A DNA stretch of 64,000 nucleotides. Source: Candidatus Amesbacteria bacterium. Lineage in GTDB: Bacteria > Patescibacteriota > Microgenomatia > CAZETR01 > Amesbacteraceae. The stretch covers positions 1,756 through 65,755 of the forward strand of contig CAVTQH010000003.1 of assembly GCA_963736875.1 (NCBI GenBank), in the 5' to 3' direction. Shown here in pieces: positions 12,307 to 53,174 of the stretch; the first letter of the stretch is position 1; every line of letters begins with the position of its first letter. Both the position numbers and the translations under genes were made by a program. The notes below the pieces were generated by a model. It was given only the letters and a program-made list of their open reading frames with translations. It did not search any database and was not told where the DNA came from.

Positions 12307-12346
12307 TCGTTTGGTTTTTTTGATATACTTAAGGCGGTATAAGAAA

Positions 12347-12808
12347 ATGATTTATATTGCCGCCGACCACCGGGGATTTGAGCTTAAGGCCAGAATAAAT
12401 GACTGGCTGAAGGGTCGCGGATATGAATTTGAGGATCTGGGGGCTTATGAATATAAACAGGAAGATGATTTTGTAGATTATGCGATTGACGTAGCCCAGC
12501 GGGTAGCTTTGGATCCGGATAAAAACCGGGGAATTCTAGTCTGTAAAAGCGGGGTGGGGATGAATATTGCGGCGGATAAAGTAAGGGGTATCAGGTGCGG
12601 GTTGGGTTTTGCTCCGGACCAGGTGCATTCTGCCAGAAAAGACGACAATATAAATGTACTGGCACTGGCTGCGGATAATACCGATGAGATTCAGGCCTGG
12701 GAATTGGTGGAGAAATTCCTGGAAACGGAGTTTGTGAAATCGGAGAATTATTTGCGAAGAATTGAGAAAATATCCCGGTATGAAAGGGAACTTGCCCACG
12801 GTAAGTGA
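12347..12808 (+). CDS. rpiB: Ribose-5-phosphate isomerase B (RpiB/LacAB family).
   Basis: MIYIAADHRGFELK.., GILVCKSGVGMNIAADKV.. are hallmark RpiB motifs. AAGGCGG RBS 10 nt upstream of ATG 12347. Confidence 0.85.
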   Translation: MIYIAADHRGFELKARINDWLKGRGYEFEDLGAYEYKQEDDFVDYAIDVAQRVALDPDKNRGILVCKSGVGMNIAADKVRGIRCGLGFAPDQVHSARKDDNINVLALAADNTDEIQAWELVEKFLETEFVKSENYLRRIEKISRYERELAHGK

Positions 12809-23071: not shown

Positions 23072-23827
23072 ATGTTCGGAGTGGAAAAACTGATGCGGGG
23101 AGAGAGAGCGTTTTTACTGGCTTATGACCAGGGATTGGAACACGGGCCGACGGATTTTAATGATGAAAATGTGGATCCGCAATATATTTTTGACATTGCC
23201 GAGCAGTCGGGGGTATTTACCTGTATTGCGGTACAAAAAGGGATTGCGGAGAAATATTATCAGAAGGGGGTATATAAAACCCCGCTGGTGGTGAAACTTA
23301 ACGGGAAAACGGCTTATCACAAGGGAGAAGAGTTGTTTTCCCCCCAGAATTGCAGTGTGGAGGAAGCCATAAATCTGGGAGCTTCCGGGGTAGGGTACAC
23401 GATTTATGTCGGCAGTGAAAGGGAAAATGAAAGTGTAGCGGAGTTTTCCGGGATTCAGGAGGAAGCACACGCGAAAGGTCTGCCGTTAATACTGTGGGCA
23501 TATCCCCGGGGAAAACATATAGGGGAAGCGGAGCACAGCAAGGAAAATATTGCTTATGCGGCCAGGATAGCTCTGGAATTGGGAGCGGATATGGTAAAGC
23601 TGACCTATACCGGGGATACGGAATCGATGAGGTGGGTGGTGAAGTCGGCCGGAAAAGTGAAAGTGCTGGTGGTGGGGGGATCAAAAGCTGACGAGCAGAC
23701 AGTTCTTGATAAAACCCGGGAAATACTGGAGGCGGGAGCAGTGGGGTGGGCGATGGGAAGGAATATCTGGCAGTCTGATAAACCAAATGAAACCGCACAG
23801 AAGATTGCCGGAATTCTATATCAATAA
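23072..23827 (+). CDS. fbaB: Class I fructose-bisphosphate aldolase, archaeal/DhnA type.
   Basis: 251-aa TIM-barrel protein with LVVKLNGKTAY, GADMVKLTYTG (Schiff-base Lys region), VLVVGGSK. DhnA-family pattern. Confidence 0.7.
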   Translation: MFGVEKLMRGERAFLLAYDQGLEHGPTDFNDENVDPQYIFDIAEQSGVFTCIAVQKGIAEKYYQKGVYKTPLVVKLNGKTAYHKGEELFSPQNCSVEEAINLGASGVGYTIYVGSERENESVAEFSGIQEEAHAKGLPLILWAYPRGKHIGEAEHSKENIAYAARIALELGADMVKLTYTGDTESMRWVVKSAGKVKVLVVGGSKADEQTVLDKTREILEAGAVGWAMGRNIWQSDKPNETAQKIAGILYQ

Positions 23828-23839
23828 GGGAGAGAAATT

Positions 23840-24826
23840 ATGAAATATGATGTATTGAGTCTGGGGCCATTTCGGATGGACGCTTTTGTGGGTCTGGGAG
23901 AGGAAGATGTGGTGGAGGTGTGCTCCGTGGATAGGAAAAGATGCATGATTGAGCTCGGGTTTGGTGAAAAAATTGCTGTTAATTCCATGCATTTTGCCAT
24001 CGGAGGGAATGCCGGAAATAATGCGGTGGGACTTTCCCGCATGGGCCGGAAAACCGCCCTGATCGGATCAGTCGGAGACGGCTGGACGGACAAACAGGCA
24101 ATGGAGGAACTTAAACAGGAGGGAGTGGAAACAAAATATGTCGAAGTAAAAGCCGGGCAGCAGGGATTCGGGGTGGTAATCAATTACCAGGGAGAGAGGA
24201 CGATTTTGTCGTATTATTCACACAGCCTGTGCTGCTGGCCGGCAGACCCTGATTTACAGGCGGACTGGATATATCTGACTTCGATGGGTGAAGGATATGA
24301 GGAGTTTTATAAACAGGCCGTAGAATGGGCAAAATCACATGGTGCCCGAATTGCTTTTAATCCGGGAACCAGACAGCTTAAAGCCGGACTGGAACCTTTA
24401 AGGTATGCTTATGAAGCCTGCGAGGTTCTTTTTGTAAACAAGGAAGAAGCGGAAGAGTTGCTGGGGAAAGAGGCAGATACCGATGTAAAGGAACTTCTGG
24501 AAGGACTACGGGCTGTCGGTGCCAGGGTGGTGATAGTAACAGACGGACCGGAAGGGACTTATTCATATGACGGACAGAAGTACCTGCATATGCCGATTGT
24601 GCCGGCTACGGTGGTGGAAAGGACGGGGGCGGGGGATGCATTCGGATCCGGATTTCTGGCAGGATTTATTGCCGGCATGCCGGTGGAGGAGTGTCTGCGG
24701 CGGGGAACGGTAAACAGCGCCTCGGTACTGGAGTTTGTGGGTCCGCAGGCCGGCCTTCTGACCCCGGATAAAATGGATCAGTGGCTTTCAAAGACTAAAG
24801 AGGTGAAGCTGGTAGAATTGGAATAG
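23840..24826 (+). CDS. PfkB-family carbohydrate kinase (ribokinase/phosphofructokinase-B-like). May be the phosphofructokinase, given the adjacent aldolase.
   Basis: GGNAGNNAVGLSRMG (N-terminal GG motif) and TGAGDAFGSGFLAGF (PfkB signature 2). Confidence 0.75.
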   Translation: MKYDVLSLGPFRMDAFVGLGEEDVVEVCSVDRKRCMIELGFGEKIAVNSMHFAIGGNAGNNAVGLSRMGRKTALIGSVGDGWTDKQAMEELKQEGVETKYVEVKAGQQGFGVVINYQGERTILSYYSHSLCCWPADPDLQADWIYLTSMGEGYEEFYKQAVEWAKSHGARIAFNPGTRQLKAGLEPLRYAYEACEVLFVNKEEAEELLGKEADTDVKELLEGLRAVGARVVIVTDGPEGTYSYDGQKYLHMPIVPATVVERTGAGDAFGSGFLAGFIAGMPVEECLRRGTVNSASVLEFVGPQAGLLTPDKMDQWLSKTKEVKLVELE

Positions 24827-24857: not shown

Positions 24858-27713
24858 ATGCTGCCCAAAGATTTAAATACTTTTCTGTCTCCCAAGTCCG
24901 TGGCCGTGGTCGGGGCTTCGAGATCTCCGGAAAAAGTCGGGGCGATAGTTTTGAAAAACATTATCGAGTCAAAATTTACCGGCAAGATTTATCCGATAAA
25001 TCCCGGTGCCCAGACTCTCTCTGACCTGCCCTGTTTTCCCGATGTAAAAAGTCTACCCGAAGCGGCGGATTTGGCGATTGTGGTTTTACCCGCACCTGCA
25101 GTTTCGGAAACTCTTTCGCAAATCGGAGAAAAAGGAATTAAAAACGTGGTGGTAATTTCGGCGGGGTTTAAGGAAATCGGAGCTGAGGGAGAAAAGCTGG
25201 AGAAAGAAATGGTGGCAACGGCGGGAAAATACGGACTGAATCTGTTAGGCCCCAACTGTCTGGGATTTGTAAATAACCTGGCACCTTTAAACGCTACTTT
25301 CGGGGAAGTCGTTAATCTGCCCGGGAATCTGCGGTTTATTTCCCAATCGGGAGCGATTGCCGCATCTTTGATGGATTGGTGCAAATCGACAGGTTTGGGA
25401 TTTGCCCAGTTTGTAACTTTGGGAAATAAAGCGGTATTAAACGAAAATGATTTTCTGGCAAATTTTCAGGTCAGCGGCCAGAATATGCCGATTGACCGGG
25501 CAGGTTTGTCCGGCTGTAATCCGATCGGTCTGTATCTGGAGTCGATTTCAAACGGACCGGAATTTTTGCGGATCACTTCCGAAATCGGCCGGACGGATCC
25601 GGTGTTTATTATCAAGCCGGGTAAAACGGCAGCGGCAGCCAAAGCAATGCAATCGCACACCGGGGCAATTGCCGGTGAGGATGATATTTTGGACGGGGCA
25701 CTGAAGGAAGCGGGAGTATTCCGCTGCCAGACGCTCGAAGATTTTTTTGATATGTCACGGGCTTTTGCCTGGGAGAATACCCCGGCAGGTCCGAAAATTG
25801 CGATAATTTCCAACGCCGGAGGACCGGCGGTAATCAGTGCTGATGCTGTCGGGGAAGCGGGTTTACAATTGTCGCAGTTTGATGACGGGATTAAAAATAA
25901 ATTGCTGCAGGTATTACCCCGGTCGGCCAGTATCCTGAATCCGGTGGATGTGCTGGGGGATGCGCTGGCTGACAGATATGTCCAGGCCGCGGAAATAATT
26001 TTGGAAACTAACCAGGCAGACAGTCTGCTGATAATTCTGACTCCCCAGGTAATGACGCAAGTCGAAAAAACCGCCCAGTTGATGGGCGATTTATCGCGTA
26101 AATATCAAAAACCGATTTTCTGCTCTTTTATCGGCGGACGGCTGGTATATGAGGGGGAACAGATATTAAACCAGAATAAAATTCCCTCATTTCGGTTTCC
26201 GGAGAGAGCGATTGCGGCAATCGGCGGAATGTGGCAGTGGCGGCAGAGGCAAACAAATCCTCCGGCTAAGTTCGAAGATAAGAGCAGTATAAGTCCAGAA
26301 AGTATTGAACAAATAAAGAGTGTGGTTAAGGCGGCGGTATCAAAAAGTCATTTCAGTCTGGATAACCTGGAAGCGGACCGGGTGGTTTCGGCACTGGGCC
26401 TTCCGACTCCGCCGACAAAAACAGCGACGACTTTGGAGGAAGCCAGAGAGTTTGCCTCACAGAGTGGTTGGCCGGTGGTACTGAAACTTTCCGCTCCGGG
26501 GCTTTTACATAAAGCCACAGTAGGCGGGGTGGTGACAAATATCTGGAATGAAGCTCAGCTGGAACTGGCCTGGGACCGGCTGGATCATATTGTACCCGGT
26601 TTGCCGCAGGATATCCGTAACGGAGTCGGATACCAGATTCAGAAAGATGTGCCGCGGGGAGTGGAAGTAATTGTGGGTTTAAAACACGATCCGACTTTCG
26701 GTCCGGTACTTTTATTCGGAGCCGGGGGGCAACTGGCTGAACTGGTAGCGGATAAAAATCTGAAGATATTACCCATTAATACTGATCAGGCAAAAGAGCT
26801 GGTGGCCAAATCAAAAGTCTTTAAGCTTTTACAAAGTAATCCCGGAGAGCCGGGGTATGCCATGACCCAACTGTATGAATTGATTGTCAAAATGACCCAC
26901 TTGGTAGCCTTAATTCCGGAGGCAACGGAAATTGAAATCAACCCGGTGATAGTAACCCACAACGATGTATGGGCGGTCGACACCAAAATACTTCTGGCCG
27001 GAGGGAAAGCACAACCGGCTGCTACGCATAAATTCCATACCGCCACACTGATTTCCAACACGGTTTTGGCTGCCAAGTTCCATTATCTGGAATTTGAATC
27101 GGAAGAACCGCTCAAATATCTGCCGGGACAATACATCAGCATCAAAGTGGCTCCGGACCGGATTAACAGCTATTCCATTGCCGGCAATGACGGGGAGAAC
27201 AAATTCCATTTACTGGTAGACAGCAGTCCCGGAGGACCGGGATCCAAGTTTTTTGAAAACCTTAAGTCAGGAGATAAAGTGGCATATCTCGGACCTTTCG
27301 GAATATTTACTTTGAAGCCCGATGACGGAGCCAAACGTCTGCTGTTTTTGGGGACCGGGACCGGATGCAGCCCTCTGCGGTCGATGCTGGAAGCGGCTTT
27401 GAAAAATCCCGATGTTAAAGTGCCGGTGGATTTTTATTTCGGTCTGAGAAATTCAAGTGACGTTTTTTGGCAGGATTATTTCAAGAAACTGACAGAGCAG
27501 CACCCGAATTTCCGGTTTGTGCTGTCGCTGTCCCGGCCTGATGAATCGTGGCACGGGCAGGTCGGGCACATTACCGAACTGGTGAAACAAATGCCTGATG
27601 CTTCCGATTACAGCGCTTACCTTTGCGGCAACCAGGCGATGATTGATGAGGCGACAAAAATCCTTCTGGAGCGAAATTGTCCCAAGACAAGGATTTATTC
27701 GGAGAAGTTTTAG
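24858..27713 (+). CDS. Acetyl-CoA synthetase (ADP-forming; fused alpha/beta, NDP-forming acyl-CoA synthetase) with a C-terminal ferredoxin-NADP reductase-like FAD/NAD(P)-binding domain (aa ~715-951).
   Basis: N-term SPKSVAVVGASRSPEKVGAIV..PINPG (CoA-binding). Middle ATP-grasp domain. C-terminal RINSYSIAG (RxYS), YLGPFG, LLFLGTGTGCSPLRSM (GTGxxP), YLCGNQAM. Single uninterrupted 951-aa ORF. Confidence 0.75.
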   Translation: MLPKDLNTFLSPKSVAVVGASRSPEKVGAIVLKNIIESKFTGKIYPINPGAQTLSDLPCFPDVKSLPEAADLAIVVLPAPAVSETLSQIGEKGIKNVVVISAGFKEIGAEGEKLEKEMVATAGKYGLNLLGPNCLGFVNNLAPLNATFGEVVNLPGNLRFISQSGAIAASLMDWCKSTGLGFAQFVTLGNKAVLNENDFLANFQVSGQNMPIDRAGLSGCNPIGLYLESISNGPEFLRITSEIGRTDPVFIIKPGKTAAAAKAMQSHTGAIAGEDDILDGALKEAGVFRCQTLEDFFDMSRAFAWENTPAGPKIAIISNAGGPAVISADAVGEAGLQLSQFDDGIKNKLLQVLPRSASILNPVDVLGDALADRYVQAAEIILETNQADSLLIILTPQVMTQVEKTAQLMGDLSRKYQKPIFCSFIGGRLVYEGEQILNQNKIPSFRFPERAIAAIGGMWQWRQRQTNPPAKFEDKSSISPESIEQIKSVVKAAVSKSHFSLDNLEADRVVSALGLPTPPTKTATTLEEAREFASQSGWPVVLKLSAPGLLHKATVGGVVTNIWNEAQLELAWDRLDHIVPGLPQDIRNGVGYQIQKDVPRGVEVIVGLKHDPTFGPVLLFGAGGQLAELVADKNLKILPINTDQAKELVAKSKVFKLLQSNPGEPGYAMTQLYELIVKMTHLVALIPEATEIEINPVIVTHNDVWAVDTKILLAGGKAQPAATHKFHTATLISNTVLAAKFHYLEFESEEPLKYLPGQYISIKVAPDRINSYSIAGNDGENKFHLLVDSSPGGPGSKFFENLKSGDKVAYLGPFGIFTLKPDDGAKRLLFLGTGTGCSPLRSMLEAALKNPDVKVPVDFYFGLRNSSDVFWQDYFKKLTEQHPNFRFVLSLSRPDESWHGQVGHITELVKQMPDASDYSAYLCGNQAMIDEATKILLERNCPKTRIYSEKF

Positions 27714-27720
27714 GGAGTGT

Positions 27721-29442
27721 ATGAATAATCTGCCATTAACAGTCAAAATCGGCGGACTGGCCGGGCAGGGGATCAAAGCCGCCGGATTAATGCTTTCCAA
27801 AATTGCCACCCGGTCCGGATATTTTATTCACACCTATACGGAGTTTCCGTCGGTAATCCGCGGCGGACATAATGTAATCCAGATCCGTATTGATAAAAGC
27901 GAAGTTTTGACCCCATCCAAAACCACAAACTTATTAATTGCTCTTAATCAGGAAACGGTTGACAGACATGCCGGCGGGCTGACTTCCGGCGGGGGAGTGA
28001 TTTTTGACGGGGATAAAAATATTAATACGGGAAAAGTTGCCGCCGGGGTGAATTTATTTGCCGTATCTCTTTCCCGACTGGCAGTTGAAGCCGGGGATCA
28101 GGAGCTTCTGGTGAACACGGTGGCAGTGGGAGCAGCAACAGCAATTTTGGGCGGTGATAAGGCAATATTGAAGGATCTGGTAACCCGGGAATTTGCTGAT
28201 AAAGGGGATGAAGTTATCCGGGCTAATCTGAAAGCGGCGGAGTCGGGATTTGATTTTGCCCGGGAAAAATTCGCGGATTTGGTAATGAAAATTTTGGAGC
28301 CGGTAAAAAAGGCAGAACCGAAAATGGTGGTAAACGGAACGGAAGCGGTAGGTCTCGGGGCAATTGCCGGGGGAATGCAGTTTGCCGCGATATATCCGAT
28401 GTCTCCGATATCAAATATTTTACAGGTACTGGCCCTTTATCAGGAGAAATACGGGTATATTTACAAGCAGCCTGAGGATGAGATTTCGGCGGTGAATATG
28501 GCAATCGGTGCTGCTTTTGCCGGAGCCAGATCGATGACGGCTACTTCCGGGGGAGGATTTTGTCTGATGACCGAAGGATTGGGGCTGGCGGCAATGACGG
28601 AGACCCCCCTGGTAATCGTGGAAGGAATGCGGCCGGGACCGGCAACGGGACTACCTACATGGACAGCCCAGGGGGATCTGCAGTTTGTGCTGCGGGCCCA
28701 TCAGGGGGATTTCCCGAGAATTGTGCTGGCGGCGGGAGATATAAAAGAAGCATTTTTACTGACAATGAAGGCTTTTAACCTGGCTGATAAATACCAGACC
28801 CCGGTAATAGTTCTCATTGATAAGAATATCTGCGATGACGACCAGAGCTATCCGGTTTTTGATATTTCGGATTACCGGTTGAACCGGGGGAAACTGACTT
28901 TGGATTTTAATCCCGGTTATGTCCGGTACGCGCCGGAAGCTGACGGAGTATCCTTCCGGACAACTCCGGGAACCGGGAATTTCTTTATTGCCAATTCGGA
29001 CGAGCATACCGACGAGGGATTTTCCACGGATGAAGAAATAAATGTGTCCCGGCAGCAGACAAAGCGAATGACCAAACTGGCAACCTGTGAAAGGGAGGAC
29101 ATGCCAAAACCTGACCTGTTTGGTCCACCGGAAGCAGACATAACAGTAGTTTCCTGGGGCAGCAATAAAGGCAGTATCCTGACGGCTTTAAAAGAATTTC
29201 CCGGGGTAAACTTTTTACATCTGACCTGGATGAGTCCGTTTCCCGCGGCAGCGGTAAAAGAAATTTTGGGTAAAGCCAAACATGTGATAGATGTGGAATG
29301 CAACCAGACGGGGCAGCTGGCCGGACTGATAACCGAAAAAACGGGATTGGAAATTTCCGACAGGTTTCTGAAAAGCAACGGAAGGCCGATATTTCCTGAA
29401 GAAATTGCCGAAAAACTTAAGGAGGTATTAAAAACATTATGA
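27721..29442 (+). CDS. 2-oxoacid:ferredoxin oxidoreductase, fused gamma-alpha subunit (KorA/PorGA-like).
   Basis: N-term gamma-like GGLAGQGIKAAG..IRGGHNV.., then alpha GTEAVGLGAIAGGMQFAAIYPMSPIS... ATG at 27721, after the stop of the upstream gene. Confidence 0.8.
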   Translation: MNNLPLTVKIGGLAGQGIKAAGLMLSKIATRSGYFIHTYTEFPSVIRGGHNVIQIRIDKSEVLTPSKTTNLLIALNQETVDRHAGGLTSGGGVIFDGDKNINTGKVAAGVNLFAVSLSRLAVEAGDQELLVNTVAVGAATAILGGDKAILKDLVTREFADKGDEVIRANLKAAESGFDFAREKFADLVMKILEPVKKAEPKMVVNGTEAVGLGAIAGGMQFAAIYPMSPISNILQVLALYQEKYGYIYKQPEDEISAVNMAIGAAFAGARSMTATSGGGFCLMTEGLGLAAMTETPLVIVEGMRPGPATGLPTWTAQGDLQFVLRAHQGDFPRIVLAAGDIKEAFLLTMKAFNLADKYQTPVIVLIDKNICDDDQSYPVFDISDYRLNRGKLTLDFNPGYVRYAPEADGVSFRTTPGTGNFFIANSDEHTDEGFSTDEEINVSRQQTKRMTKLATCEREDMPKPDLFGPPEADITVVSWGSNKGSILTALKEFPGVNFLHLTWMSPFPAAAVKEILGKAKHVIDVECNQTGQLAGLITEKTGLEISDRFLKSNGRPIFPEEIAEKLKEVLKTL

Positions 29443-30296
29443 CCAAACTAAATGATTTGACCACTCCCTGCTCTCCCAACTGGTGTCCGGGATGCGGCAA
29501 TCTGGCAATCTGGGGAGCGTTTAAAAACGCGGCTGTTAAGCAAGGCTGGGACAATTCCAACACCGCATTGGTTGCCGGCATCGGCTGCCACGGACATATT
29601 ATTAATTTTATCCGGCTGACTTCATTTGAAGGACTGCACGGCCGGGCGATACCCGTTGCCTCCGGAATCAAACTGGCTAATCACAAACTTAACGTGTTTG
29701 TTTTTACCGGCGACGGGGACTGTCTGGCTGAAGGCGGAAACCATTTCGTGCATGCCTGCCGGAGGAATATTAATCTGACGGTGTTTCTGCATGACAATGC
29801 AATTTATGGCCTGACAACGGGACAAACTTCGCCCACTTCCCCCCACGGGTATAAATCAAAATCGACTCCCGAGGGAAATATTGATTATCCGATAAATCCT
29901 TTGACTCTGGCAATTTCAGCCGGGGTAACATTCGTAGCCCGAGGGTATGCCGGGGATATTCCGGCGCTGACAGATTTAATGATAAAAGCTAATCAACATC
30001 AGGGATTTGCCGTTCTGGATATTCTTCAGCCGTGTGTGACTTTCAACAAGCAATATTCACATACTTTTTACCGCGATAATGTTTATCAATTGGATGCCGG
30101 CCACGACGTAAAAAATAAAGAAGCGGCTTTTGCTAAAGCTCTGGAGTGGGGAGAAAAGAAAATTCCCCTGGGGATTTTTTACCAGGTTGAACAGCCGACT
30201 TATGAATCACAGATCCTGCAGATTAAAGAGAAACCTTTGGTGGCAATTTCTCCTGAGCGAAAAGATCTGAAGGATCTGTTTGAGAAGTTTGTCTAG
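29439..30296 (+). CDS. 2-oxoacid:ferredoxin oxidoreductase, beta subunit (TPP-binding).
   Basis: WCPGCGNLAI.., GIGCHG.., GDGDCLAEGGNHF are TPP/Fe-S beta-subunit motifs. Start overlaps the alpha stop (ATGA). Confidence 0.8.
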   Translation: MTKLNDLTTPCSPNWCPGCGNLAIWGAFKNAAVKQGWDNSNTALVAGIGCHGHIINFIRLTSFEGLHGRAIPVASGIKLANHKLNVFVFTGDGDCLAEGGNHFVHACRRNINLTVFLHDNAIYGLTTGQTSPTSPHGYKSKSTPEGNIDYPINPLTLAISAGVTFVARGYAGDIPALTDLMIKANQHQGFAVLDILQPCVTFNKQYSHTFYRDNVYQLDAGHDVKNKEAAFAKALEWGEKKIPLGIFYQVEQPTYESQILQIKEKPLVAISPERKDLKDLFEKFV

Positions 30297-30918
30297 TAAC
30301 CGGTAAAGATTTCAAAATTAATATTTAGAGGAGAAGCTCCGTTTTTTTGCAGAAGTTTGACCATAGGGACAACGAATTGGGGAATACCAATAACGTAAAA
30401 TATATTATTAGCCGGGGGAGGCAAAGAGTTAATAAACGAAAGACGGGGATTATTTCCGGCCAGAAGGTCCAGCTCTTCCTGGAATAGTAAGGGCGGGGAG
30501 TAATTTAACAGGAATTGATAGAGTTGGGATTTTTCCCGGGCGTATTTGAGGATGCTCATAATCGGGGCAATACCCACATCGGAAGTAACGAATACCACGG
30601 GGTTATGGGGGTTGTCGGGCAACGTCATTTGGCCGTCTATATCATCGATATCCACAACAGACCCGATTGGCAGTTGAGCAAGCGATTTTTTAAAAGCACT
30701 CGGACCGGCATGAGTGACCATGGCAGCCAGAGATTGTTGGGTGGGAGTGTTGATAAAACCGAAATAACGGCTGTTCCCCCGGTTGTCGGTAAACGGGGGA
30801 TTGATCAAAGTTAAACGGAAGAATTGACCGGCCCGGAATTCCAAAGGTTGTTCACTGGTAAATTCCACGTATAGGTAATCCGGAGGAAGGGATTTTTTTA
30901 CAGTAATAATTGCTTTCA
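30293..30918 (-). CDS. FNR-like oxidoreductase (FAD/NAD(P)-binding two-domain protein; resembles a sulfhydrogenase-gamma / DHODH electron-transfer subunit lacking Fe-S cysteines).
   Basis: ..FRAGQFFRLTL..SRYFGFINTP.. (FAD-binding barrel), VVFVTSDVGIAPIMSIL (NAD-binding GxGxxP-like). No Cys cluster. Start taken at the internal MKAIITVKK. Confidence 0.55.
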
Positions 30919-30961
30919 TGGCCTCTTGTAATTTTATGTACTCTTCTTTACTATAAATGTA

Positions 30962-31234
30962 ATGGATGATACTAATCAAATCAAAACCATAGAGGATAAA
31001 GAAGTCCAGATCGGCAAGTATAAGATTAAGGTGGTGCGCAGTCTGTGCATCGGCGCGGCATCGTGCGTGGCCGTTTCACCTGCGGTTTTCCAGCTGGACG
31101 GCGAAAGTAAAGCGATCGTGCCGGAAGGAGCTGACGACGCCGCTGAAAATATAATACTTGCTGCCCAGTCCTGTCCCACCAAAGCGATTATTGTCACTGA
31201 TACGGAAACCGGACAGCAGGTTTGGCCGGCTTAA
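30962..31234 (+). CDS. Ferredoxin, single-cluster Pyrococcus type (Cx5C...CP).
   Basis: 90-aa protein with SLCIGAASCVAVSP and a distal SCPTKAI (Cys-Pro). Confidence 0.65.
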   Translation: MDDTNQIKTIEDKEVQIGKYKIKVVRSLCIGAASCVAVSPAVFQLDGESKAIVPEGADDAAENIILAAQSCPTKAIIVTDTETGQQVWPA

Positions 31235-31806
31235 CTTTTACTTCTCAACACTTCTTTTGTCCAATGGTTCAATGATGCTTCTTCCCCGGGAGTCAGTATT
31301 TTTACTGCTTTTCCCCAATGAACTGCCACAACATCTCCGTTTTTTAGACCGGGTAAAAAACCCGGCAAGTAAGCCGGCATTTCTTCCCTTTTTCCGTCTG
31401 CGGAATTTAGTACGGCTGTCAGTTTTTCTTCCATTATTTCCGTTACGTGACCCCATCTGATCATGCAGTCATTAGGATTTACCGGCTCATGCAGGACCTT
31501 GAATAAATGGAACGGTAAAAAATCCGGATTAAAGTTTTTTAAAGCTTCTCCTCCGAGCCAGTATGTCCTAACCACGTCTTCGGAAAACATTCCCCGGTGC
31601 ATTTCCCTGGCCAGAGTTCCCAGGTAGAGCATCATACCTTTATATCTTGATAATACCGTTACTATTCCGTCATATCTGCCTTCGACTACACAATTTTCCA
31701 GCTTATGCCTACCCTCCCGCTCAGAGGAGCAAGCGCCTGCTGACCAGGCGAATCTGGCAGCCAGTTGTAATCCCTCTTTGTCCATATTAATCTTCTCATC
31801 ATACAT
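31231..31806 (-). CDS. Hypothetical protein (191 aa), soluble, with no recognisable motif. Sits between the ferredoxin and hydrogenase genes.
   Basis: Intact ORF with protein-like composition. Its 3' end overlaps the ferredoxin stop and its 5' end overlaps the maturation-protease start. Confidence 0.4.
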   Translation of the reverse strand: MYDEKINMDKEGLQLAARFAWSAGACSSEREGRHKLENCVVEGRYDGIVTVLSRYKGMMLYLGTLAREMHRGMFSEDVVRTYWLGGEALKNFNPDFLPFHLFKVLHEPVNPNDCMIRWGHVTEIMEEKLTAVLNSADGKREEMPAYLPGFLPGLKNGDVVAVHWGKAVKILTPGEEASLNHWTKEVLRSKS

Positions 31807-32197
31807 GACGGTTTATGTTTTCGGGAATCAGGATTGTGATTTGGATAACCGGGTATATAAAACAATAAAGAAATGCCCCGGGATTGTCGATTTTATTCTG
31901 GTCAAACCCAATGAAGACCTGCCGTTTGTCGGGAAAAAACGGGCAGTCATTCTGGATACCATTCAGGGTATCGGAAAGGTGACATTATTTGACCAAACAA
32001 GCCTGGACAAGCTGATAGTCTCCCGCGGTACATCGGCTCATGATTATGACCTGGGATTCCAGCTAAAGTATTTAAAGAAATTGGGGAAAATAAATGAAGT
32101 GATGATCATCGGTATCCCGCAGGAAGGAAGAGTGGATTATTTGCGGATCCAGTCGATTTTGAGAAAGTTGGTAGCGCAGGACATGCAGGGGTCATAG
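31805..32197 (+). CDS. [NiFe]-hydrogenase maturation endopeptidase (HycI/HybD family).
   Basis: MTVYVFGNQDCDLDNRV..AVILDTIQ..SAHDYDLGFQL matches the HycI/HoxW pattern (GxGN..DDG..; D..H catalytic). ATG at 31805. Confidence 0.6.
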   Translation: MTVYVFGNQDCDLDNRVYKTIKKCPGIVDFILVKPNEDLPFVGKKRAVILDTIQGIGKVTLFDQTSLDKLIVSRGTSAHDYDLGFQLKYLKKLGKINEVMIIGIPQEGRVDYLRIQSILRKLVAQDMQGS

Positions 32198-33441
32198 CAG
32201 CGGATTATCTCTTCCGCGGCATGATGAAGCTGCCCTTCATCCTGATCCAGATGTTCGTTGAAATATTTTTTAAGATCGTTTTCGATGGTAATCTGGTTCT
32301 GGGATGTGGGGATAATAACTTCATAGTCAGAAACCATGCCCCGGTCGTTAACTTCGGCCATATGGTAAAGAATTCCCCGGGGAGCTTCGACTACTCCGAT
32401 ACCGTGACCTGCCTGTACCGGTTTTTTAACCGGTTTTTCTTCAGGATTTATTTTGACGGTGGTTAAGATATCGATGGCATCATCGACACAATGCAGGACT
32501 TCGATGGCCTGGGCAAGATTGTTGTGGTAAATATTGTGGGAAGGGAATATTTTCAGATACTCCTTGGCATCGGATCGGGTGCGCGGATGCAGCAGATCCT
32601 GATTAAAATTAATTCTGGCTAAAGATCCGACCAGATAATCTTCGTGGTTGCTTTTGATGGTGTAGCCTTCCGATTGGGAATAGGGGATGACTACTTTTTC
32701 CAAGAATTTGTCAAAGTCCTGCGAGGCAACTACCTGACCTGTGGAAATATGAATTTCCCCGTCTAAAAAGTCAAACCGTTTTTCGTTTCTTAAGTACATA
32801 TAATCCGAATTTCGTATCAAACTTTCTTTCCACCCGGCAAAAGTTTTTATTCCCCGCAGTACCTGGGGTCTAACGGCTTCCAGCCTGGAAATAAGTTCCG
32901 GAAACTTTGCCGGATCAGGATTTTTTAAAAGGCCGCCGACTGTCGGAAGCGGGGCGTGGATGGCGGCACCAATGACGGTATTACTGATATCGGTTCCCAG
33001 CTGTTTAATGTCAAAAGAGTCATGCAGAAGAATGTGGCCGGGGTCACCGGGATCATCCGGGATGTCAAGAATAGAATCGACTCTTAAAATATCAGGGAGG
33101 ACGAAAAAGTAGAGATGTAAAGCGTGATCCCTGATCATCAGGGCGTCATAAGCCAGGCGTCTTAATGTCTTTGTCTGCTCTGATACTTCAATACCCTGGG
33201 ACATTTCCAGAGCTTTTAAAGCGGCAAACATGTGGGCTACGGAGCAGGTACCGCAAATCCGGGAGAGAAAAGAGGGGACGGAAACGATGGGTTTACCCTT
33301 GACGGCATCGGTATAAAAACGCCGATAGTCCTGAATGATAAATTTGAGGTCTTTGACGGTGTCGTTTTCGATGACAACTTTCAGACCGGCCGAACCTTCA
33401 ATTTTTGTAATATTATCGATGGTAATTTCACCCTGGTGCAT
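32137..33441 (-). CDS. [NiFe]-hydrogenase large subunit (group 3-like).
   Basis: N-terminal RICGTCSVAH (RxCGxCxxxH) and C-terminal DPCMSCATN (DPCxxC motif), followed by a short extension FLKIDWIRK. 434 aa. Confidence 0.85.
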   Translation of the reverse strand: MHQGEITIDNITKIEGSAGLKVVIENDTVKDLKFIIQDYRRFYTDAVKGKPIVSVPSFLSRICGTCSVAHMFAALKALEMSQGIEVSEQTKTLRRLAYDALMIRDHALHLYFFVLPDILRVDSILDIPDDPGDPGHILLHDSFDIKQLGTDISNTVIGAAIHAPLPTVGGLLKNPDPAKFPELISRLEAVRPQVLRGIKTFAGWKESLIRNSDYMYLRNEKRFDFLDGEIHISTGQVVASQDFDKFLEKVVIPYSQSEGYTIKSNHEDYLVGSLARINFNQDLLHPRTRSDAKEYLKIFPSHNIYHNNLAQAIEVLHCVDDAIDILTTVKINPEEKPVKKPVQAGHGIGVVEAPRGILYHMAEVNDRGMVSDYEVIIPTSQNQITIENDLKKYFNEHLDQDEGQLHHAAEEIIRCYDPCMSCATNFLKIDWIRK

Positions 33442-33447
33442 GGTTGG

Positions 33448-33939
33448 TTATGGGTTACCAATATTAAATAATTTTAAATATTTATTCAGGATTTCGAGAA
33501 AAGCGGGGACATTCATGGGGCAGCCGCTTACCTCGTCATCTATTTTGATAACCTCGGACAGTTTCTGGACTTTCTTATTGTAATCAAAAGTGCTCATGTA
33601 ACAGCGGATTTTTTCCGTAATCATCTCGTCGGTGAAGGAATTTCTGGTGGCTGAAGGCAGTCCGGTACAGGCGCAGGCACCGATGGCGACCACATATTTG
33701 GCATTAGCCCGGATATTTTTTACTTCCCCGGCCTGTTTTTCGGAGGAAACGGCGCCTTCGATAAAAGCCACGTCCAAATCTTTGATTTCATTTTTGGTTT
33801 TTAGAGCCCTGAGATACCGGAATTCCACTATCTTTTTCCATTCATCCAAATGCTTGTTCAGAAGCTCGGTGAAGAGGATGGTACTGTCTTCGCAGCAGGT
33901 AAAAGAAAACCAGCCGACGATCAGTTTTTTGGGACTCAT
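33448..33939 (-). CDS. [NiFe]-hydrogenase small subunit (group 3 delta-like).
   Basis: KKLIVGWFSFTCCEDS (proximal-cluster Cys), ..AIGACACTG.., ..GCPMN. Start taken at MSPKKL. Confidence 0.75.
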   Translation of the reverse strand: MSPKKLIVGWFSFTCCEDSTILFTELLNKHLDEWKKIVEFRYLRALKTKNEIKDLDVAFIEGAVSSEKQAGEVKNIRANAKYVVAIGACACTGLPSATRNSFTDEMITEKIRCYMSTFDYNKKVQKLSEVIKIDDEVSGCPMNVPAFLEILNKYLKLFNIGNP

Positions 33940-33969
33940 TATAGTATTATAACCAATATTGAGATTTCT

Positions 33970-34686
33970 ATGATACAAGTAACCGACCTGCAAGTCACCG
34001 TAAAGAATAAAGAGATTCTTAAAAAGGTGAATTTAAACGTAAATAAGGGCGAGATAGCAGTAATTTTCGGTCCGAACGGCAGCGGTAAAACCACTTTGTT
34101 AAACGCCATTATGGGACTTGCCAAATACCGGGTAAAAAGCGGCCGGATTGAATTTAAGGATAAGTTGATAAACAGCTGGCCGATTGAAAGGAGAGCCAAA
34201 GCCGGCATTGGCCTTCTCTGGCAAAAGCCGCCGAAGGTAATCGGAGTAACGATGGCCGCGATCGTGAAAGCAATCGACGGGAAGAAACAAAACCTGAAAG
34301 CGGCAGAAGAAATGAAGACGGATAAGTTTTTAAACCGGGGAGTGAATGACGATCTGTCGGGGGGTGAGTTGAAAAGGTCGGAACTGGCCCAGCTTCTCGT
34401 TCAAGACCCCCAACTGCTTCTTCTGGATGAACCGGATTCAGGAGTGGATCCGGAAAACAGTAAATTAATTGCCGAAGCAGTTGAAAGCTGGAGAAAACGC
34501 GGAAAATCGATCCTTCTGGTTACCCACAGCGGGAATCTGCTGAAATACCTGTTGGCTAAAAGAGCGTATGTAATGCTGGACGGCCAAATCCGTTGCCAGG
34601 GAAAGCCGGGGGAAATGCTTAAAGCAATTACAAAATGCGGTTATGAAGGTTGTATTGATTGTATAAGGAGAAGAAAAAATGATTGA
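33970..34686 (+). CDS. sufC: Fe-S cluster assembly ATPase SufC.
   Basis: Walker A GPNGSGKTTL, LSGGELKRSELAQL signature, LLLLDEPDSGVD Walker B. Start at MIQVTDLQV (33970). Confidence 0.85.
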   Translation: MIQVTDLQVTVKNKEILKKVNLNVNKGEIAVIFGPNGSGKTTLLNAIMGLAKYRVKSGRIEFKDKLINSWPIERRAKAGIGLLWQKPPKVIGVTMAAIVKAIDGKKQNLKAAEEMKTDKFLNRGVNDDLSGGELKRSELAQLLVQDPQLLLLDEPDSGVDPENSKLIAEAVESWRKRGKSILLVTHSGNLLKYLLAKRAYVMLDGQIRCQGKPGEMLKAITKCGYEGCIDCIRRRKND

Positions 34687-41232: not shown

Positions 41233-41302
41233 ATGAAAAACAGAAACTTCCGGCAGGCAGGTGGATTATAAGAAGGGCGGGGGGAAGATACAATCGCCGG
41301 AT

Positions 41303-43687: not shown

Positions 43688-43727
43688 GGGTTGAATTATA
43701 CCCGCAAAGGCGGTATATTTATAAGGC

Positions 43728-53167: not shown

Positions 53168-53174
53168 CAAATAT

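What the first reader, a model, noticed from the sequence alone, without database searches (positions are those of the whole stretch)
24858..27713. ADP-forming acetyl-CoA synthetase fused in-frame to a C-terminal FNR-like FAD/NAD(P)H oxidoreductase domain
This is a single 951-aa ORF. Residues 1-~700 are a fused alpha/beta NDP-forming acyl-CoA synthetase (CoA-binding N-terminus, ATP-grasp). Residues ~715-951 carry a complete ferredoxin-NADP reductase-family module (RINSYSIAG, YLGPFG, LFLGTGTGCSPLRS, YLCGN). I do not know of an ACD with a covalently attached flavin reductase. It could couple substrate-level phosphorylation to NAD(P)H/ferredoxin redox balance, next to the 2-oxoacid:ferredoxin oxidoreductase, ferredoxin and hydrogenase genes. 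Given the indel-prone assembly, a missed stop between two genes must be excluded.
Basis: partly seen in the sequence, partly recalled or inferred. Interest (0 to 1): 0.65.

Follow-up and report, generated by a model that had tools for sequence, protein, structure and literature searches.

The report
ATP-forming acyl-CoA synthetase fused to flavin reductase
A real, conserved gene of tiny uncultured (CPR) bacteria joins the enzyme that makes ATP from acetyl-CoA to a flavin/NAD(P)H reductase; it sits directly in front of the enzyme whose two products (acyl-CoA and reduced ferredoxin) the two halves would consume, and nobody seems to have described the fusion.

Summary
The 951-aa ORF at 24858-27713 is real. 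It has exactly the stated architecture: a complete five-subdomain ADP-forming acyl-CoA synthetase (ACD), a short linker, and a two-domain FNR-family flavin/NAD(P)H reductase. It is not a missed stop. All 120 listed homolog clusters match at 55-73% identity, nearly all with the full architecture. 58 GTDB species genomes of Microgenomates and WWE3, including one closed chromosome, carry the same fusion.

Both ACD phospho-histidines and all FNR catalytic motifs are conserved in 36 of 36 homologs. The gene is operon-coupled to a two-subunit 2-oxoacid:ferredoxin oxidoreductase (OFOR), and usually to a three-Cys ferredoxin and a stripped-down group-3b-like [NiFe] hydrogenase. In related genomes where the FNR is a separate gene, it stays directly upstream of OFOR.

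Best reading, inferred and not assayed: a bifunctional enzyme that handles both OFOR products. The ACD half turns acyl-CoA into acid plus ATP. The FNR half links the ferredoxin pool to NAD(P)(H).

I found no published description of the fusion; databases call it "acetate--CoA ligase family protein". I class it as a new variant of known kinds, of moderate interest.

The parts
24858..27713 (+). ACD-FNR fusion gene, 951 aa, TAG stop at 27711-27713
   Evidence: ORF; domains; full-length homologs; coordinates checked.
24894..25274 (+). CoA-binding subdomain 1 (residues 13-139)
   Evidence: Pfam CoA_binding_2 1.2e-23 and CoA_binding 1.8e-14.
25320..25766 (+). Subdomain 2 (Succ_CoA_lig, residues 155-303), holding the swinging-loop phospho-histidine H267 (codon 25656-25658, motif SHTGA)
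   Evidence: Pfam 1.8e-38. H267 is invariant in 36 of 36 sequences. It aligns to H256 of Nmar_0206/8wzu (mechanism in PMC11494057). The loop has pLDDT below 50 in the model, as expected for a mobile loop.
25800..26246 (+). Ligase-CoA subdomain 5 (residues 315-463)
   Evidence: Pfam Ligase_CoA_2 9.9e-10.
26340..26993 (+). ATP-grasp subdomains 3/4 (residues 495-712), holding the second catalytic histidine H551 (codon 26508-26510, motif LLHK)
   Evidence: Pfam ATP-grasp_5 6.5e-55. H551 is invariant in 36 of 36. It aligns to H535 of 8wzu.
26994..27044 (+). Inter-module linker (residues 713-729): variable sequence, nearly constant length, no Met
   Evidence: Mean column entropy 2.08 against 0.9-1.4 in the domains, and only 0-3 residue indels. 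Residues 717-723 have pLDDT below 50.
27045..27308 (+). FNR-family flavin-binding beta-barrel (residues 730-817) with R768/N770, Y772-S773 and G793-x-G795-S796
   Evidence: Pfam FAD_binding_6 6.3e-09. Invariant residues. Alignments to GcoB, NqrF and MmoC.
27345..27653 (+). NAD(P)H-binding Rossmann domain (residues 830-932) with G834-T-G836-x-x-P839, acidic D868 and C923-G924-x-x-x-M928
   Evidence: Pfam NAD_binding_1 1.1e-19.
27702..27710 (+). C-terminal E949-K950-F951 (catalytic Glu plus a terminal aromatic residue)
   Evidence: E949 is present in 36 of 36; position 951 is F in 32, Y in 2 and L in 2. GcoB and MmoC end in the identical EKF.
27721..29442 (+). 2-oxoacid:ferredoxin oxidoreductase alpha(-gamma) subunit. 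Its Shine-Dalgarno sequence GGGAG overlaps the fusion's stop codon.
   Evidence: Pfam POR and POR_N. TIGR03710 scores 601 bits against a cut-off of 483. Junction DNA. The start lies within 250 nt of the fusion stop in 48 of 52 loci.
29439..30296 (+). OFOR beta (TPP/Fe-S) subunit
   Evidence: Pfam TPP_enzyme_C and PFO_beta_C; TIGR02177 scores 317 bits against a cut-off of 262.
30293..30979 (-). Second, divergent FNR-like gene (FNR2) with degenerate cofactor motifs; present in only some related loci
   Evidence: No Pfam hit; weak NCBIfam hits to LuxG and Fre; 25% identity to the fused FNR; homologs in L004, L008, L010, L015 and L020.
30962..31234 (+). Single-cluster ferredoxin with a three-Cys motif CxxAxxC...CP; presumed one-electron partner
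   Evidence: Pfam Fer4_13 and Fer4_15. The motif is conserved in all 20 cleanly extracted homologs. A ferredoxin lies downstream of 40 of 43 fusion loci.
31231..31806 (-). DUF6390 protein, a conserved cluster member of unknown role
   Evidence: Pfam; synteny; single-frame alignment.
31778..32197 (+). HycI-like putative hydrogenase maturation protease
   Evidence: 56% identical to the L005 gene that carries a weak PF01750 (HycI) hit; synteny.
32137..33441 (-). [NiFe] hydrogenase large subunit, group-3b-like
   Evidence: Pfam NiFeSe_Hases; best NCBIfam match is HydA; best PDB matches are sulfhydrogenase I alpha, 9nez and 5yxy, 2.7e-53.
33448..33993 (-). Short hydrogenase small (delta-like) subunit
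   Evidence: Pfam Oxidored_q6. It matches HydD profile positions 1-154 of 261 only.

Best explanation
Shown: one polypeptide carries a complete ADP-forming acyl-CoA synthetase and a complete FNR-family flavin/NAD(P)H reductase. Both have intact catalytic residues. The gene is conserved in Microgenomates and WWE3 bacteria and is translationally coupled to a two-subunit 2-oxoacid:ferredoxin oxidoreductase (OFOR), followed by a small ferredoxin.

Inferred: the protein is bifunctional and services both products of OFOR. OFOR converts a 2-oxoacid (probably pyruvate) and CoA into acyl-CoA, CO2 and reduced ferredoxin. The ACD half then converts acyl-CoA, ADP and Pi into the acid, CoA and ATP through the two phospho-histidines. 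The FNR half exchanges electrons between the ferredoxin pool and NAD(P)+/NAD(P)H through its flavin. Sequence leans towards NADH. The FNR half would thus act as a redox valve beside the ferredoxin-linked hydrogenase.

The net reaction would be: 2-oxoacid + ADP + Pi + NAD(P)+ -> acid + CO2 + ATP + NAD(P)H. The fusion fixes a 1:1 stoichiometry and may tether both activities near OFOR. The direction of electron flow, the pyridine nucleotide, the flavin and the acyl-CoA range are not established.
For: Architecture.

ACD competence: H267 and H551 are invariant in 36 of 36 sequences. They align to H256 and H535 of the characterised Nmar_0206 enzyme (mechanism in PMC11494057). The SHTG loop is present as in active ACDs and unlike PatZ. 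The match to 8wzu is 413 bits.

FNR competence: Y772, S773, G793, G795, S796, G834, G836, G924, M928 and E949 are present in 36 of 36 sequences; C923 in 35 of 36; the terminal residue is F in 32, Y in 2 and L in 2. The flavin-binding Arg is always present, either at Y-4 (29 sequences) or at Y-2 (7 sequences), never both or neither, which is a compensatory swap implying selection for flavin binding. The module is as conserved as the ACD domains. The motifs align with the FAD enzymes GcoB, NqrF and MmoC, including the C-terminal EKF of GcoB and MmoC.

Context: OFOR alpha starts within 250 nt of the fusion stop in 48 of 52 fusion loci, and within 21 nt in 45. A ferredoxin follows in 40 of 43 loci and a hydrogenase in 27 of 35. 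In the window, the stop codon overlaps the OFOR Shine-Dalgarno sequence.

Rosetta-stone evidence: where the FNR is a separate gene (L052, L064, L066, L067, L070, L074), it remains directly upstream of OFOR alpha, while the ACD is 1.7-3 kb away or absent. Four of these unfused forms branch just outside the fused clade.

Physiology: genome papers on these lineages already posit PFOR, then ACD for ATP, with ferredoxin re-oxidised by an Fd:NADP reductase, as separate functions (PMC7143001; PMC3812714).
Against: No biochemical data exist for any member.

The closest characterised FNR relatives (GcoB, MmoC, BenC, NqrF) run in the direction NADH -> flavin -> Fe-S and carry their own [2Fe-2S] domain, which is absent here.

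The partner ferredoxin is a three-Cys, probably [3Fe-4S], type whose potential is unknown, so the direction of flow is open.

The canonical RxYS Arg is displaced in the window protein.

The acetate-specific NCBIfam model is below its cut-off, so the acyl substrate is uncertain.

An always-acidic D/E868 aligns with D/E in NADH enzymes. That weakens the attractive 'NADPH supply' rationale.

The single-chain model cannot show whether the FNR docks on the ACD, OFOR or ferredoxin.
Confidence: 0.55

Rival explanations
1. The fused FNR is chiefly the missing NAD(P)H-binding (gamma-like) module of the stripped-down group-3b-like hydrogenase in the same cluster, with the small ferredoxin acting as the wire. 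Electrons would run NAD(P)H <-> FNR <-> ferredoxin <-> hydrogenase. The ACD fusion would only secure co-expression.
For: The hydrogenase large subunit is closest to the NADPH-dependent sulfhydrogenase I alpha subunit. Its small subunit matches only HydD profile positions 1-154 of 261. No beta or gamma genes are in the cluster. The hydrogenase is present near 27 of 35 fusion loci.
Against: Eight of 35 fusion loci with at least 8.5 kb of downstream sequence have no hydrogenase there, yet keep the FNR-OFOR arrangement. When unfused, the FNR stays beside OFOR, while the hydrogenase lies 5-8 kb away on the other strand. Similarity to the HydG model is weak, 44 bits against a cut-off of 395. This rival is not exclusive of the main explanation, because both act through ferredoxin.
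Confidence: 0.15
2. One module is regulatory and not catalytic. Either the FNR-like part senses the NAD(P)H/NAD(P)+ ratio and gates ATP-forming flux, or, as in Pat/PatZ, the ACD-like body only senses acyl-CoA.
For: PatZ is a precedent for an ACD-like body joined to another C-terminal domain, and it is the top structural match. The linker is short and of fixed length, which would suit inter-domain communication.
Against: Both modules keep every catalytic residue in 36 of 36 sequences. The SHTG phospho-His loop that PatZ has lost is intact here. The Arg swap argues for maintained flavin binding. A sensing role added on top of catalysis is not excluded.
Confidence: 0.1
3. The system runs in reverse, for acetate assimilation. 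The ACD half makes acetyl-CoA from acetate, ATP and CoA. The FNR half reduces ferredoxin with NAD(P)H. OFOR then acts as a pyruvate synthase.
For: All three enzyme types are reversible in principle. The fusion would then supply both OFOR substrates. The closest characterised ACD relative, Nmar_0206, works in the CoA-ester-forming direction. The closest FNR relatives work from NADH towards Fe-S.
Against: From general thermodynamics, NAD(P)H -> ferredoxin -> reductive carboxylation is strongly uphill without bifurcation or an ion gradient. These lineages are described as fermenters that lack respiratory chains and carbon fixation. The genes immediately upstream are sugar-catabolic, a DeoC aldolase and a PfkB kinase.
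Confidence: 0.07
4. The FNR module is a Fre/LuxG-like NAD(P)H:free-flavin (or quinone, or O2-detoxifying) reductase with no mechanistic link to OFOR or ferredoxin.
For: It is Fre-sized, and Fre (1qfj) superposes at TM 0.87 and rmsd 2.3 A. There are NCBIfam hits to Fre (6e-22) and LuxG (7.8e-20). More distant standalone relatives sit in unrelated contexts.
Against: The linkage to OFOR and ferredoxin is strict, whether the FNR is fused or not. Hits to FAD-holding reductases are stronger: MmoC 1.4e-33, BenC 3.1e-32, GcoB 8.7e-27. The C-terminal EKF is that of GcoB and MmoC.
Confidence: 0.08
5. An assembly or annotation artefact: two adjacent genes were joined by a lost stop codon or a frameshift.
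Against: All 120 listed homolog clusters match at 55-73% identity, 117 of them over at least 99% of the query, from JGI, ENA, NCBI and Logan assemblies. 58 species genomes carry the fusion, including closed CP006914. The alignment through the junction is continuous.
Confidence: 0.01

Closest known systems
[quoted passage not shown] Korarchaeum ACD1 (4xyl series), Pyrococcus PH0766/PH1788
   Same: Same five subdomains in the single-chain order 1-2-5-4/3. Both catalytic histidines and the SHTG swinging loop are present. The match to 8wzu is 413 bits, with TM 0.89 when normalised to the target.
   Different: None of these has any domain after the ATP-grasp. Here about 240 extra residues form an FNR-type reductase. 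The substrate is not assigned: the acetate model TIGR02717 scores below its cut-off.
Protein lysine acetyltransferase Pat/PatZ (PDB 9isq, 9it0)
   Same: The only solved proteins with an ACD-like body followed by a different C-terminal catalytic domain; they are the top Foldseek hits.
   Different: PatZ lacks the SHTG phospho-His loop and carries a GNAT domain, not an FNR module. Its ACD-like part is regarded as regulatory, whereas here the catalytic residues are intact.
Three-domain NADH:Fe-S reductases of oxygenase and P450 systems (GcoB 5ogx, MmoC 1tvc, BenC 1krh) and NqrF
   Same: They are the best sequence matches of the FNR module (8.7e-27 to 6.4e-17). All motifs align, and GcoB and MmoC share the identical C-terminal EKF.
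   Different: They carry a [2Fe-2S] ferredoxin domain, and the fusion has none: no Fe-S Cys motif was found. The canonical RxYS Arg is displaced by two residues in most fusion proteins.
NAD(P)H:flavin reductase Fre (1qfj) and LuxG
   Same: The same minimal two-domain size of about 230 aa. The structural match is TM 0.87 and rmsd 2.3 A.
   Different: Sequence identity is only 21%. Fre uses free flavin as a substrate (general knowledge). Nothing here indicates that, and the genomic context points to ferredoxin.
Pyruvate:NADP+ oxidoreductase (PNO) of Euglena and Cryptosporidium (from my own knowledge, not tested here)
   Same: The same functional logic: electrons from a pyruvate:ferredoxin-type oxidoreductase are channelled to a pyridine nucleotide by a covalently attached flavoprotein.
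   Different: In PNO the flavoprotein is a P450-reductase-like FMN+FAD module fused to PFOR itself. Here a plain FNR module is fused to the ACD, OFOR is a separate two-subunit enzyme, and no FMN domain is present.
Group 3b [NiFe] sulfhydrogenase gamma subunit (HydG)
   Same: It is an FNR-family NAD(P)H-binding module serving a hydrogenase of the type found in this cluster.
   Different: The match is only 44 bits against a cut-off of 395. The fused module has no Fe-S site, is not adjacent to the hydrogenase genes and lies on the opposite strand.

Membership tests
[quoted passage not shown] | Five subdomains (two CoA-binding, one ligase-CoA, ATP-grasp with lid) on one or two chains | tested here: met
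   Pfam CoA_binding_2, Succ_CoA_lig, Ligase_CoA_2 and ATP-grasp_5 are all above their cut-offs. The protein aligns full length to 8wzu. Foldseek gives TM 0.88-0.89 to 8wzu.
[quoted passage not shown] | Phospho-histidine on the swinging loop (H256 in Nmar_0206) | tested here: met
   H267 in SHTGA is invariant in 36 of 36 sequences. It aligns to the SHTG motif of 8wzu, 2csu, 4xyl and 9y43. Its role is described in PMC11494057.
[quoted passage not shown] | Second catalytic histidine in the ATP-grasp part (H535 in Nmar_0206) | tested here: met
   H551 in LLHK is invariant in 36 of 36 sequences. It aligns to H535 by residue count in the alignment. Its role is described.
Acetate--CoA ligase (ADP-forming), EC 6.2.1.13 specifically | Score above the curated equivalog cut-off, or demonstrated acetyl-CoA activity | tested here: not met
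   TIGR02717 scores 474.6 bits against a cut-off of 567.15. The 4-hydroxybutyrate, 3-hydroxypropionate and Archaeoglobus acetate models are all far below their cut-offs. Activity cannot be tested with these tools. I therefore file the protein under the superfamily only.
FNR-family flavoprotein reductases (FAD_binding_6 + NAD_binding_1) | Two-domain fold: a six-stranded beta-barrel plus a Rossmann-type domain | tested here: met
   Both Pfam domains are above their cut-offs. The AF2 model has pLDDT of about 85-94 over 730-950 with the expected strand and helix order. Foldseek matches to Fre, cytochrome b5 reductase, NqrF and GcoB.
FNR-family flavoprotein reductases (FAD_binding_6 + NAD_binding_1) | R-x-Y-(S/T) flavin-binding motif | tested here: inconclusive
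   Y772 and S773 are invariant. In the window protein and 28 others the position at Y-2 is Asn, and the Arg sits at Y-4. Seven sequences have the canonical Arg at Y-2 and no Arg at Y-4. The strict either/or pattern suggests the function is retained, but flavin binding itself is untested.
FNR-family flavoprotein reductases (FAD_binding_6 + NAD_binding_1) | GxxS/T, GxGxxP and CGxxxM motifs, and a C-terminal Glu plus aromatic residue | tested here: met
   G793-x-G795-S796, G834-T-G836-x-x-P839, C923-G924-x-x-x-M928 and E949-K-F951 are all invariant or nearly so. They align to GcoB, NqrF and MmoC.
FNR-family flavoprotein reductases (FAD_binding_6 + NAD_binding_1) | Bound flavin and NAD(P)H-dependent electron transfer | not testable with these tools
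   This needs purified protein. The sequence lean towards NADH (acidic D/E868 in 36 of 36, aligned to D/E in NADH enzymes) is only a lead.
Three-domain oxygenase or P450 reductases (BenC/MmoC/GcoB class) | A plant-type [2Fe-2S] ferredoxin domain fused to the FNR module | tested here: not met
   There is no Fer2 domain. No conserved Cys cluster occurs in residues 716-951. NCBIfam matches cover only the FNR part of these models and lie far below their cut-offs.
Pat/PatZ protein acetyltransferases | An ACD-like body lacking the catalytic His loop, plus a C-terminal GNAT domain | tested here: not met
   The His loop is present here and deleted in 9isq. The C-terminal domain is FNR, not GNAT.
Pyruvate:NADP+ oxidoreductase (PNO) | PFOR and an FMN+FAD P450-reductase-like module on one chain | tested here: not met
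   OFOR alpha and beta are separate genes. The flavoprotein is on the ACD chain and has no flavodoxin-like FMN domain. The resemblance is functional only.
Group 3b hydrogenase gamma subunit (HydG) | Equivalog-level similarity, Fe-S binding Cys residues, and a gene within the hydrogenase operon | tested here: not met
   NF006220 scores 44.3 bits against a cut-off of 395. There is no Cys motif. The gene is separated from the hydrogenase genes and on the opposite strand.

The most novel reading that the evidence does not exclude
ACD-FNR, the two-subunit OFOR and the three-Cys ferredoxin form a physical soluble complex, a 'pyruvate-to-acetate metabolon'. In it, acyl-CoA and electrons are both handed on within one assembly. 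The redox state of the FNR flavin, or NAD(P)H occupancy, allosterically gates the 30-angstrom swing of the phospho-histidine loop. ATP formation by substrate-level phosphorylation would then be directly coupled to the cell's NAD(P)H/ferredoxin balance. That would be a previously unknown mode of control for the main ATP-yielding step, beyond glycolysis, of a large part of the Candidate Phyla Radiation.
Probability: 0.2. Interest if true: 0.75.

Novelty: new variant of a known kind. Interest (0 to 1): 0.55.

Why it matters
Microgenomates and WWE3 are abundant, uncultured, genome-reduced bacteria. In published reconstructions their only ATP sources are glycolysis and the step from acetyl-CoA to acetate. 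Those reconstructions treat 'ACD' and 'ferredoxin:NAD(P) reductase' as separate boxes.

This analysis shows that in at least 58 species they are one polypeptide, welded to the OFOR operon. That yields a concrete, testable model of how these organisms balance ferredoxin, NAD(P)H and H2 without a respiratory chain. It also corrects a systematic under-annotation: databases name the protein 'acetate--CoA ligase family protein' or 'acetyltransferase'.

The fusion supplies Rosetta-stone evidence for an ACD-FNR-OFOR functional unit. It adds a new domain partner to the ACD superfamily beside the GNAT domain of Pat. Finally, it offers a compact module (2-oxoacid -> acid + ATP + NAD(P)H) of possible use in metabolic engineering.

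Tried and rejected
**Artefact hypothesis (missed stop or frameshift).** Rejected on comparative grounds.

**'Indel-prone assembly'.** The one suspicious short gene in the cluster, DUF6390 (191 aa against about 240 aa in relatives), aligns in a single frame, so no frameshift was seen there.

**Foldseek against AFDB.** I wanted to see whether UniProt or AFDB annotates the architecture, but the library was unavailable.

**Promoter and terminator scan of 22-34.5 kb.** Counts were near shuffle expectation and told me nothing.

**Literature.** Eight searches for any description of an ACD-FNR fusion found none. Two further queries failed on syntax. The library lacks most subscription-journal papers, so absence is not proof.

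**Context of distant standalone FNR homologs (30-38% identity; Dojkabacteria and others).** Their context is unrelated (DUF2797, TGT), so they do not inform function.

**Ferredoxin extraction script.** It failed for about half the loci. The motif statement rests on the window plus the 20 clean sequences.

**The second FNR-like gene (FNR2) as a duplicate of the fused module.** It is only 25% identical and has degenerate motifs, so it is not a recent paralog.

**HydG-like identity of the fused module.** Rejected: 44 bits against a cut-off of 395.

**NAD(P)H specificity.** I have only a weak lean towards NADH from an aligned acidic residue. I do not claim it.

**NJ tree.** It has no support values and should be read as a sketch only.

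Full report
**1. Observation**

The window holds one uninterrupted ORF at 24858..27713 on the + strand. It starts with ATG, encodes 951 aa and ends ...SEKF-TAG.

Pfam places six domains in order, all above their curated cut-offs:
- CoA_binding_2 at 13-139
- Succ_CoA_lig at 155-303
- Ligase_CoA_2 at 315-463
- ATP-grasp_5 at 495-712
- FAD_binding_6 at 730-817
- NAD_binding_1 at 830-932

The junction DNA shows no stop, frame change or long homopolymer.

**2. Not an artefact**

A search of 5.8 billion protein clusters listed the 120 best hits. All match at 55-73% identity and 117 cover at least 99% of the query. They are 848-990 aa long, nearly all carry the same full Pfam domain set, and they come from JGI, ENA, NCBI and Logan assemblies.

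I also scanned one genome per GTDB species with a junction-spanning alignment (A2). It found 58 species in which the ATP-grasp end and the FNR module are contiguous in one frame. These include the closed chromosome of candidate division WWE3 RAAC2 (CP006914, locus L029). Record titles name Woese-, Ames-, Levy-, Davies- and Collierbacteria and WWE3. Several automated TPA labels (Gammaproteobacteria, Saccharibacteria) look unreliable, and I did not verify them.

Across 36 aligned members the linker (residues 713-729) varies in sequence but differs in length by only 0-3 residues. The FNR module is as conserved as the ACD domains, with mean column entropy 1.2-1.4 against 0.9-1.3.

**3. The ACD half looks catalytically competent**

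[quoted passage not shown] After it come PH0766, PatZ and the Korarchaeum ACD1.

The paper on 8wzu describes the mechanism: phosphate passes from ATP to H535 in the ATP-grasp, then to H256 on a swinging loop (PMC11494057). By residue counting in the alignment, these two histidines correspond to H551 (LLHK) and H267 (SHTGA) here. Both are invariant in 36 of 36 fusion proteins.

A focused alignment shows SHTG conserved in four active ACDs, while the motif is deleted in PatZ. The AF2 model has mean pLDDT 85 and pTM 0.67. It is confident in all domains and drops below 50 only at 256-271 (the mobile His loop), at 356-368 and at 717-723 in the linker.

Substrate specificity is not settled. The acetate-specific equivalog TIGR02717 scores 474.6 bits against a cut-off of 567.

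**4. The FNR half also looks competent**

NCBIfam and PDB searches match the full length of the module to FAD/NADH reductases: MmoC at 1.4e-33, BenC at 3.1e-32, GcoB (5ogx) at 8.7e-27, then NqrF and cytochrome b5 reductase. The fold superposes on the minimal two-domain reductase Fre at TM 0.87 and rmsd 2.3 A.

Family motifs are invariant or nearly so:
- Y772-S773
- G793-x-G795-S796
- G834-T-G836-x-x-P839
- C923-G924-x-x-x-M928
- E949-K-F951

The C-terminal EKF is identical in GcoB and MmoC.

One departure is notable. The canonical Arg of RxYS, at Y-2, is Asn in the window protein. Arg then sits at Y-4. Across the 36 sequences the two states are strictly exclusive: R768 with N770 in 29 sequences, and A/V768 with R770 in 7. 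This compensatory pattern argues for maintained flavin binding.

The module has no Fe-S domain and no conserved Cys cluster, so it needs an external one-electron partner. Position 868 is always acidic (31 D, 5 E). It aligns with D or E in the NADH enzymes GcoB, NqrF and MmoC. I treat this as a weak lean towards NADH only.

**5. Genomic context**

In the window, the fusion's TAG stop overlaps a GGGAG Shine-Dalgarno sequence, and the next ATG is at 27721. The genes that follow are:
- a two-subunit 2-oxoacid:ferredoxin oxidoreductase: alpha at 27721-29442 (TIGR03710, 601 bits, above its cut-off) and beta at 29439-30296;
- a divergent FNR-like gene on the minus strand;
- a 90-aa ferredoxin;
- DUF6390, a HycI-like gene, and a [NiFe] hydrogenase large and small subunit.

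The hydrogenase is closest to the group 3b sulfhydrogenase I. Its small subunit matches only the first 154 of 261 HydD profile positions, and no beta or gamma subunits are encoded nearby.

The ferredoxin has three Cys in a CxxAxxC...CP motif. The motif is conserved in the 20 homologs I could extract cleanly. From general knowledge of CxxXxxC...CP ferredoxins, this suggests a [3Fe-4S]-type single-cluster carrier.

**6. Conservation of the context**

Among the GTDB species loci:
- OFOR alpha starts within 250 nt of the fusion stop in 48 of 52 loci, and within 21 nt in 45 of them.
- A ferredoxin homolog follows in 40 of 43 loci.
- The hydrogenase follows in 27 of 35 loci.

The same order is seen on metagenome contigs.

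Most informative are genomes where the FNR is a separate gene of about 230 aa. In L064, L066 and L074 an unfused ACD lies 1.7-3 kb upstream. In L074 the ACD is 724 aa with its own stop, and an NDH-2-like flavoprotein and a flavodoxin lie in between. In L052, L067 and L070 no ACD is seen within 4-9 kb. In every one of these cases the FNR gene is still directly upstream of OFOR alpha.

An exhaustive HMMER search with the FNR module alone shows its nearest relatives are a few fused clusters plus many standalone proteins of about 230 aa. A rough NJ tree places L064, L066, L070 and L074 just outside the fused clade, and L052 and L067 inside it (no support values). The simplest history is that an FNR-OFOR-ferredoxin unit existed first, that the ACD was fused to it once, and that it separated again in rare cases. 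More distant standalone relatives (30-38% identity) sit in unrelated contexts.

**7. Mechanism**

*Shown:* two intact catalytic modules on one chain, conserved and operon-coupled to OFOR and ferredoxin.

*Inferred:* OFOR oxidises a 2-oxoacid to acyl-CoA plus reduced ferredoxin. The ACD half harvests the thioester as ATP through H551 and H267. The FNR half connects the ferredoxin pool to NAD(P)+/NAD(P)H through its flavin. It would act as a valve alongside the ferredoxin-dependent hydrogenase.

Published genome reconstructions of Microgenomates Ch65 and WWE3 RAAC2 already invoke PFOR, ACD and a ferredoxin:NADP reductase or 'ferredoxin oxidoreductase-like protein'. They treat these as separate functions and do not mention a fusion (PMC7143001; PMC3812714).

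The direction of electron flow, the nucleotide, the flavin and the acyl range are open. I put 0.55 on this reading.

The rivals are:
- The FNR is mainly the missing gamma-like module of the trimmed 3b hydrogenase (0.15; not exclusive of the main reading).
- One module has a sensing or regulatory role (0.10).
- The system runs in reverse as a pyruvate synthase (0.07).
- The FNR is a Fre-like free-flavin reductase unrelated to OFOR (0.08).
- The fusion is an artefact (0.01).

**8. Comparison with known systems**

The protein is a member of the ACD superfamily and of the FNR family; the membership table gives the individual tests. It is not a member of four related groups:
- Pat/PatZ: the His loop is present here, and there is no GNAT domain.
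- The three-domain BenC/MmoC/GcoB class: there is no [2Fe-2S] domain.
- Pyruvate:NADP+ oxidoreductase (PNO): the flavoprotein is not on the OFOR chain, and there is no FMN domain.
- HydG: 44 bits against a cut-off of 395.

Functionally, the nearest analogy is PNO, in which a flavoprotein covalently tied into a pyruvate:ferredoxin-type pathway sends electrons to a pyridine nucleotide. That comparison rests on my own knowledge and was not tested here. No solved structure covers both modules.

**9. Novelty and score**

Eight literature searches found no description of this architecture. Sources label the protein 'acetate--CoA ligase family protein', 'acetyltransferase' or 'hypothetical'. The sequences are public and both modules are textbook folds, so this is a new variant of known kinds and not a new category.

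It would interest specialists in anaerobic energy metabolism and CPR biology. It revises the central ATP-yielding node of a large group of organisms and gives a directly testable model. Interest: 0.55.

The most novel reading not excluded is a physical OFOR-ferredoxin-ACD-FNR metabolon in which redox state gates the phospho-His loop. I give it probability 0.2, with interest 0.75 if true.

Noticed in passing
window 1-64000: The + strand has G 28.3% against C 19.0%. GC skew is positive in every 2-kb bin, whatever the gene orientation. A whole-chromosome G/C strand disparity of this kind has been reported for Microgenomates of order UBA1400 (Ch65, Collierbacteria, Beckwithbacteria) and tentatively ascribed to unidirectional replication (PMC7143001).
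   Followed up: partly
window 30293-30979 (-): A second FNR-like gene (228 aa) lies between OFOR beta and the ferredoxin. It is only 25% identical to the fused module and has no Pfam hit. Its motifs are degenerate: SRYFGF in place of SYSIAG, and VTSDVGIAP in place of LGTGTGCSP. Homologs occur in only some related loci (L004, L008, L010, L015, L020). It may have lost its cofactors.
   Followed up: partly
window 32137-33993 (-): A group-3b-like [NiFe] hydrogenase reduced to a large subunit plus a short small subunit. The small subunit matches only HydD profile positions 1-154 of 261. No beta or gamma subunits are in the cluster. The arrangement is conserved in at least 27 species. Its electron partner is unknown; the neighbouring ferredoxin is the obvious candidate.
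   Followed up: partly
window 30962-31234 (+): The cluster ferredoxin has only three Cys, in a CxxAxxC...CP motif. Ala is conserved at the position of the usual second Cys in all 20 cleanly extracted homologs. This suggests a [3Fe-4S]-type carrier working with a two-subunit OFOR.
   Followed up: partly
window 31778-32197 (+) and 32137-33441 (-): The HycI-like gene and the hydrogenase large-subunit gene converge, and their 3' ends overlap by about 60 nt. The same overlap appears in related loci, for example L001, L004 and L005.
   Followed up: no
window 31231-31806 (-): A DUF6390 protein is a near-constant member of the cluster, between the ferredoxin and the hydrogenase. The window copy is shorter than its relatives (191 aa against about 240 aa) but aligns in one frame. 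Its function is unknown.
   Followed up: partly
window 60896-62332 (+): A 478-aa protein combines an N-terminal aminoacyl-tRNA editing domain (tRNA_edit, YbaK-like; 1.4e-15) with a class Ib Trp/Tyr-type tRNA synthetase core (8.1e-59). This is an unusual pairing that deserves its own look.
   Followed up: no
window 53097-53168 (+): A tRNA-Ile with anticodon UAU. From general knowledge, most bacteria instead read AUA with a lysidine-modified CAU tRNA.
   Followed up: no
window 12284-13709 (+): Phosphoglycerate kinase similarity lies in a 315-aa ORF (12762-13709) that overlaps an upstream 174-aa ORF (12284-12808). This may be a split or frameshifted PGK, or an alternative start.
   Followed up: no
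window 56284-58662 (-) and 6520-7602 (-): Two large ORFs (792 aa and 360 aa) have no Pfam match at E <= 1e-5.
   Followed up: no
window 39064-43822 (-): Two tandem class A penicillin-binding proteins (transglycosylase plus transpeptidase; 722 and 839 aa).
   Followed up: no
L074 4461-7269: In a genome with unfused ACD and FNR, the intervening 3 kb encodes a 430-aa protein that by its sequence looks like an NDH-2-type pyridine-nucleotide-disulfide oxidoreductase (no domain scan run), a membrane protein and a 157-aa flavodoxin-like protein. These are further redox genes in the same neighbourhood.
   Followed up: no
window 23072-24826 (+): A DeoC/LacD-family aldolase and a PfkB-family sugar kinase lie immediately upstream of the fusion. 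A PfkB homolog also precedes the unfused ACD in L074. This hints at a link between sugar or nucleoside catabolism and this module.
   Followed up: no
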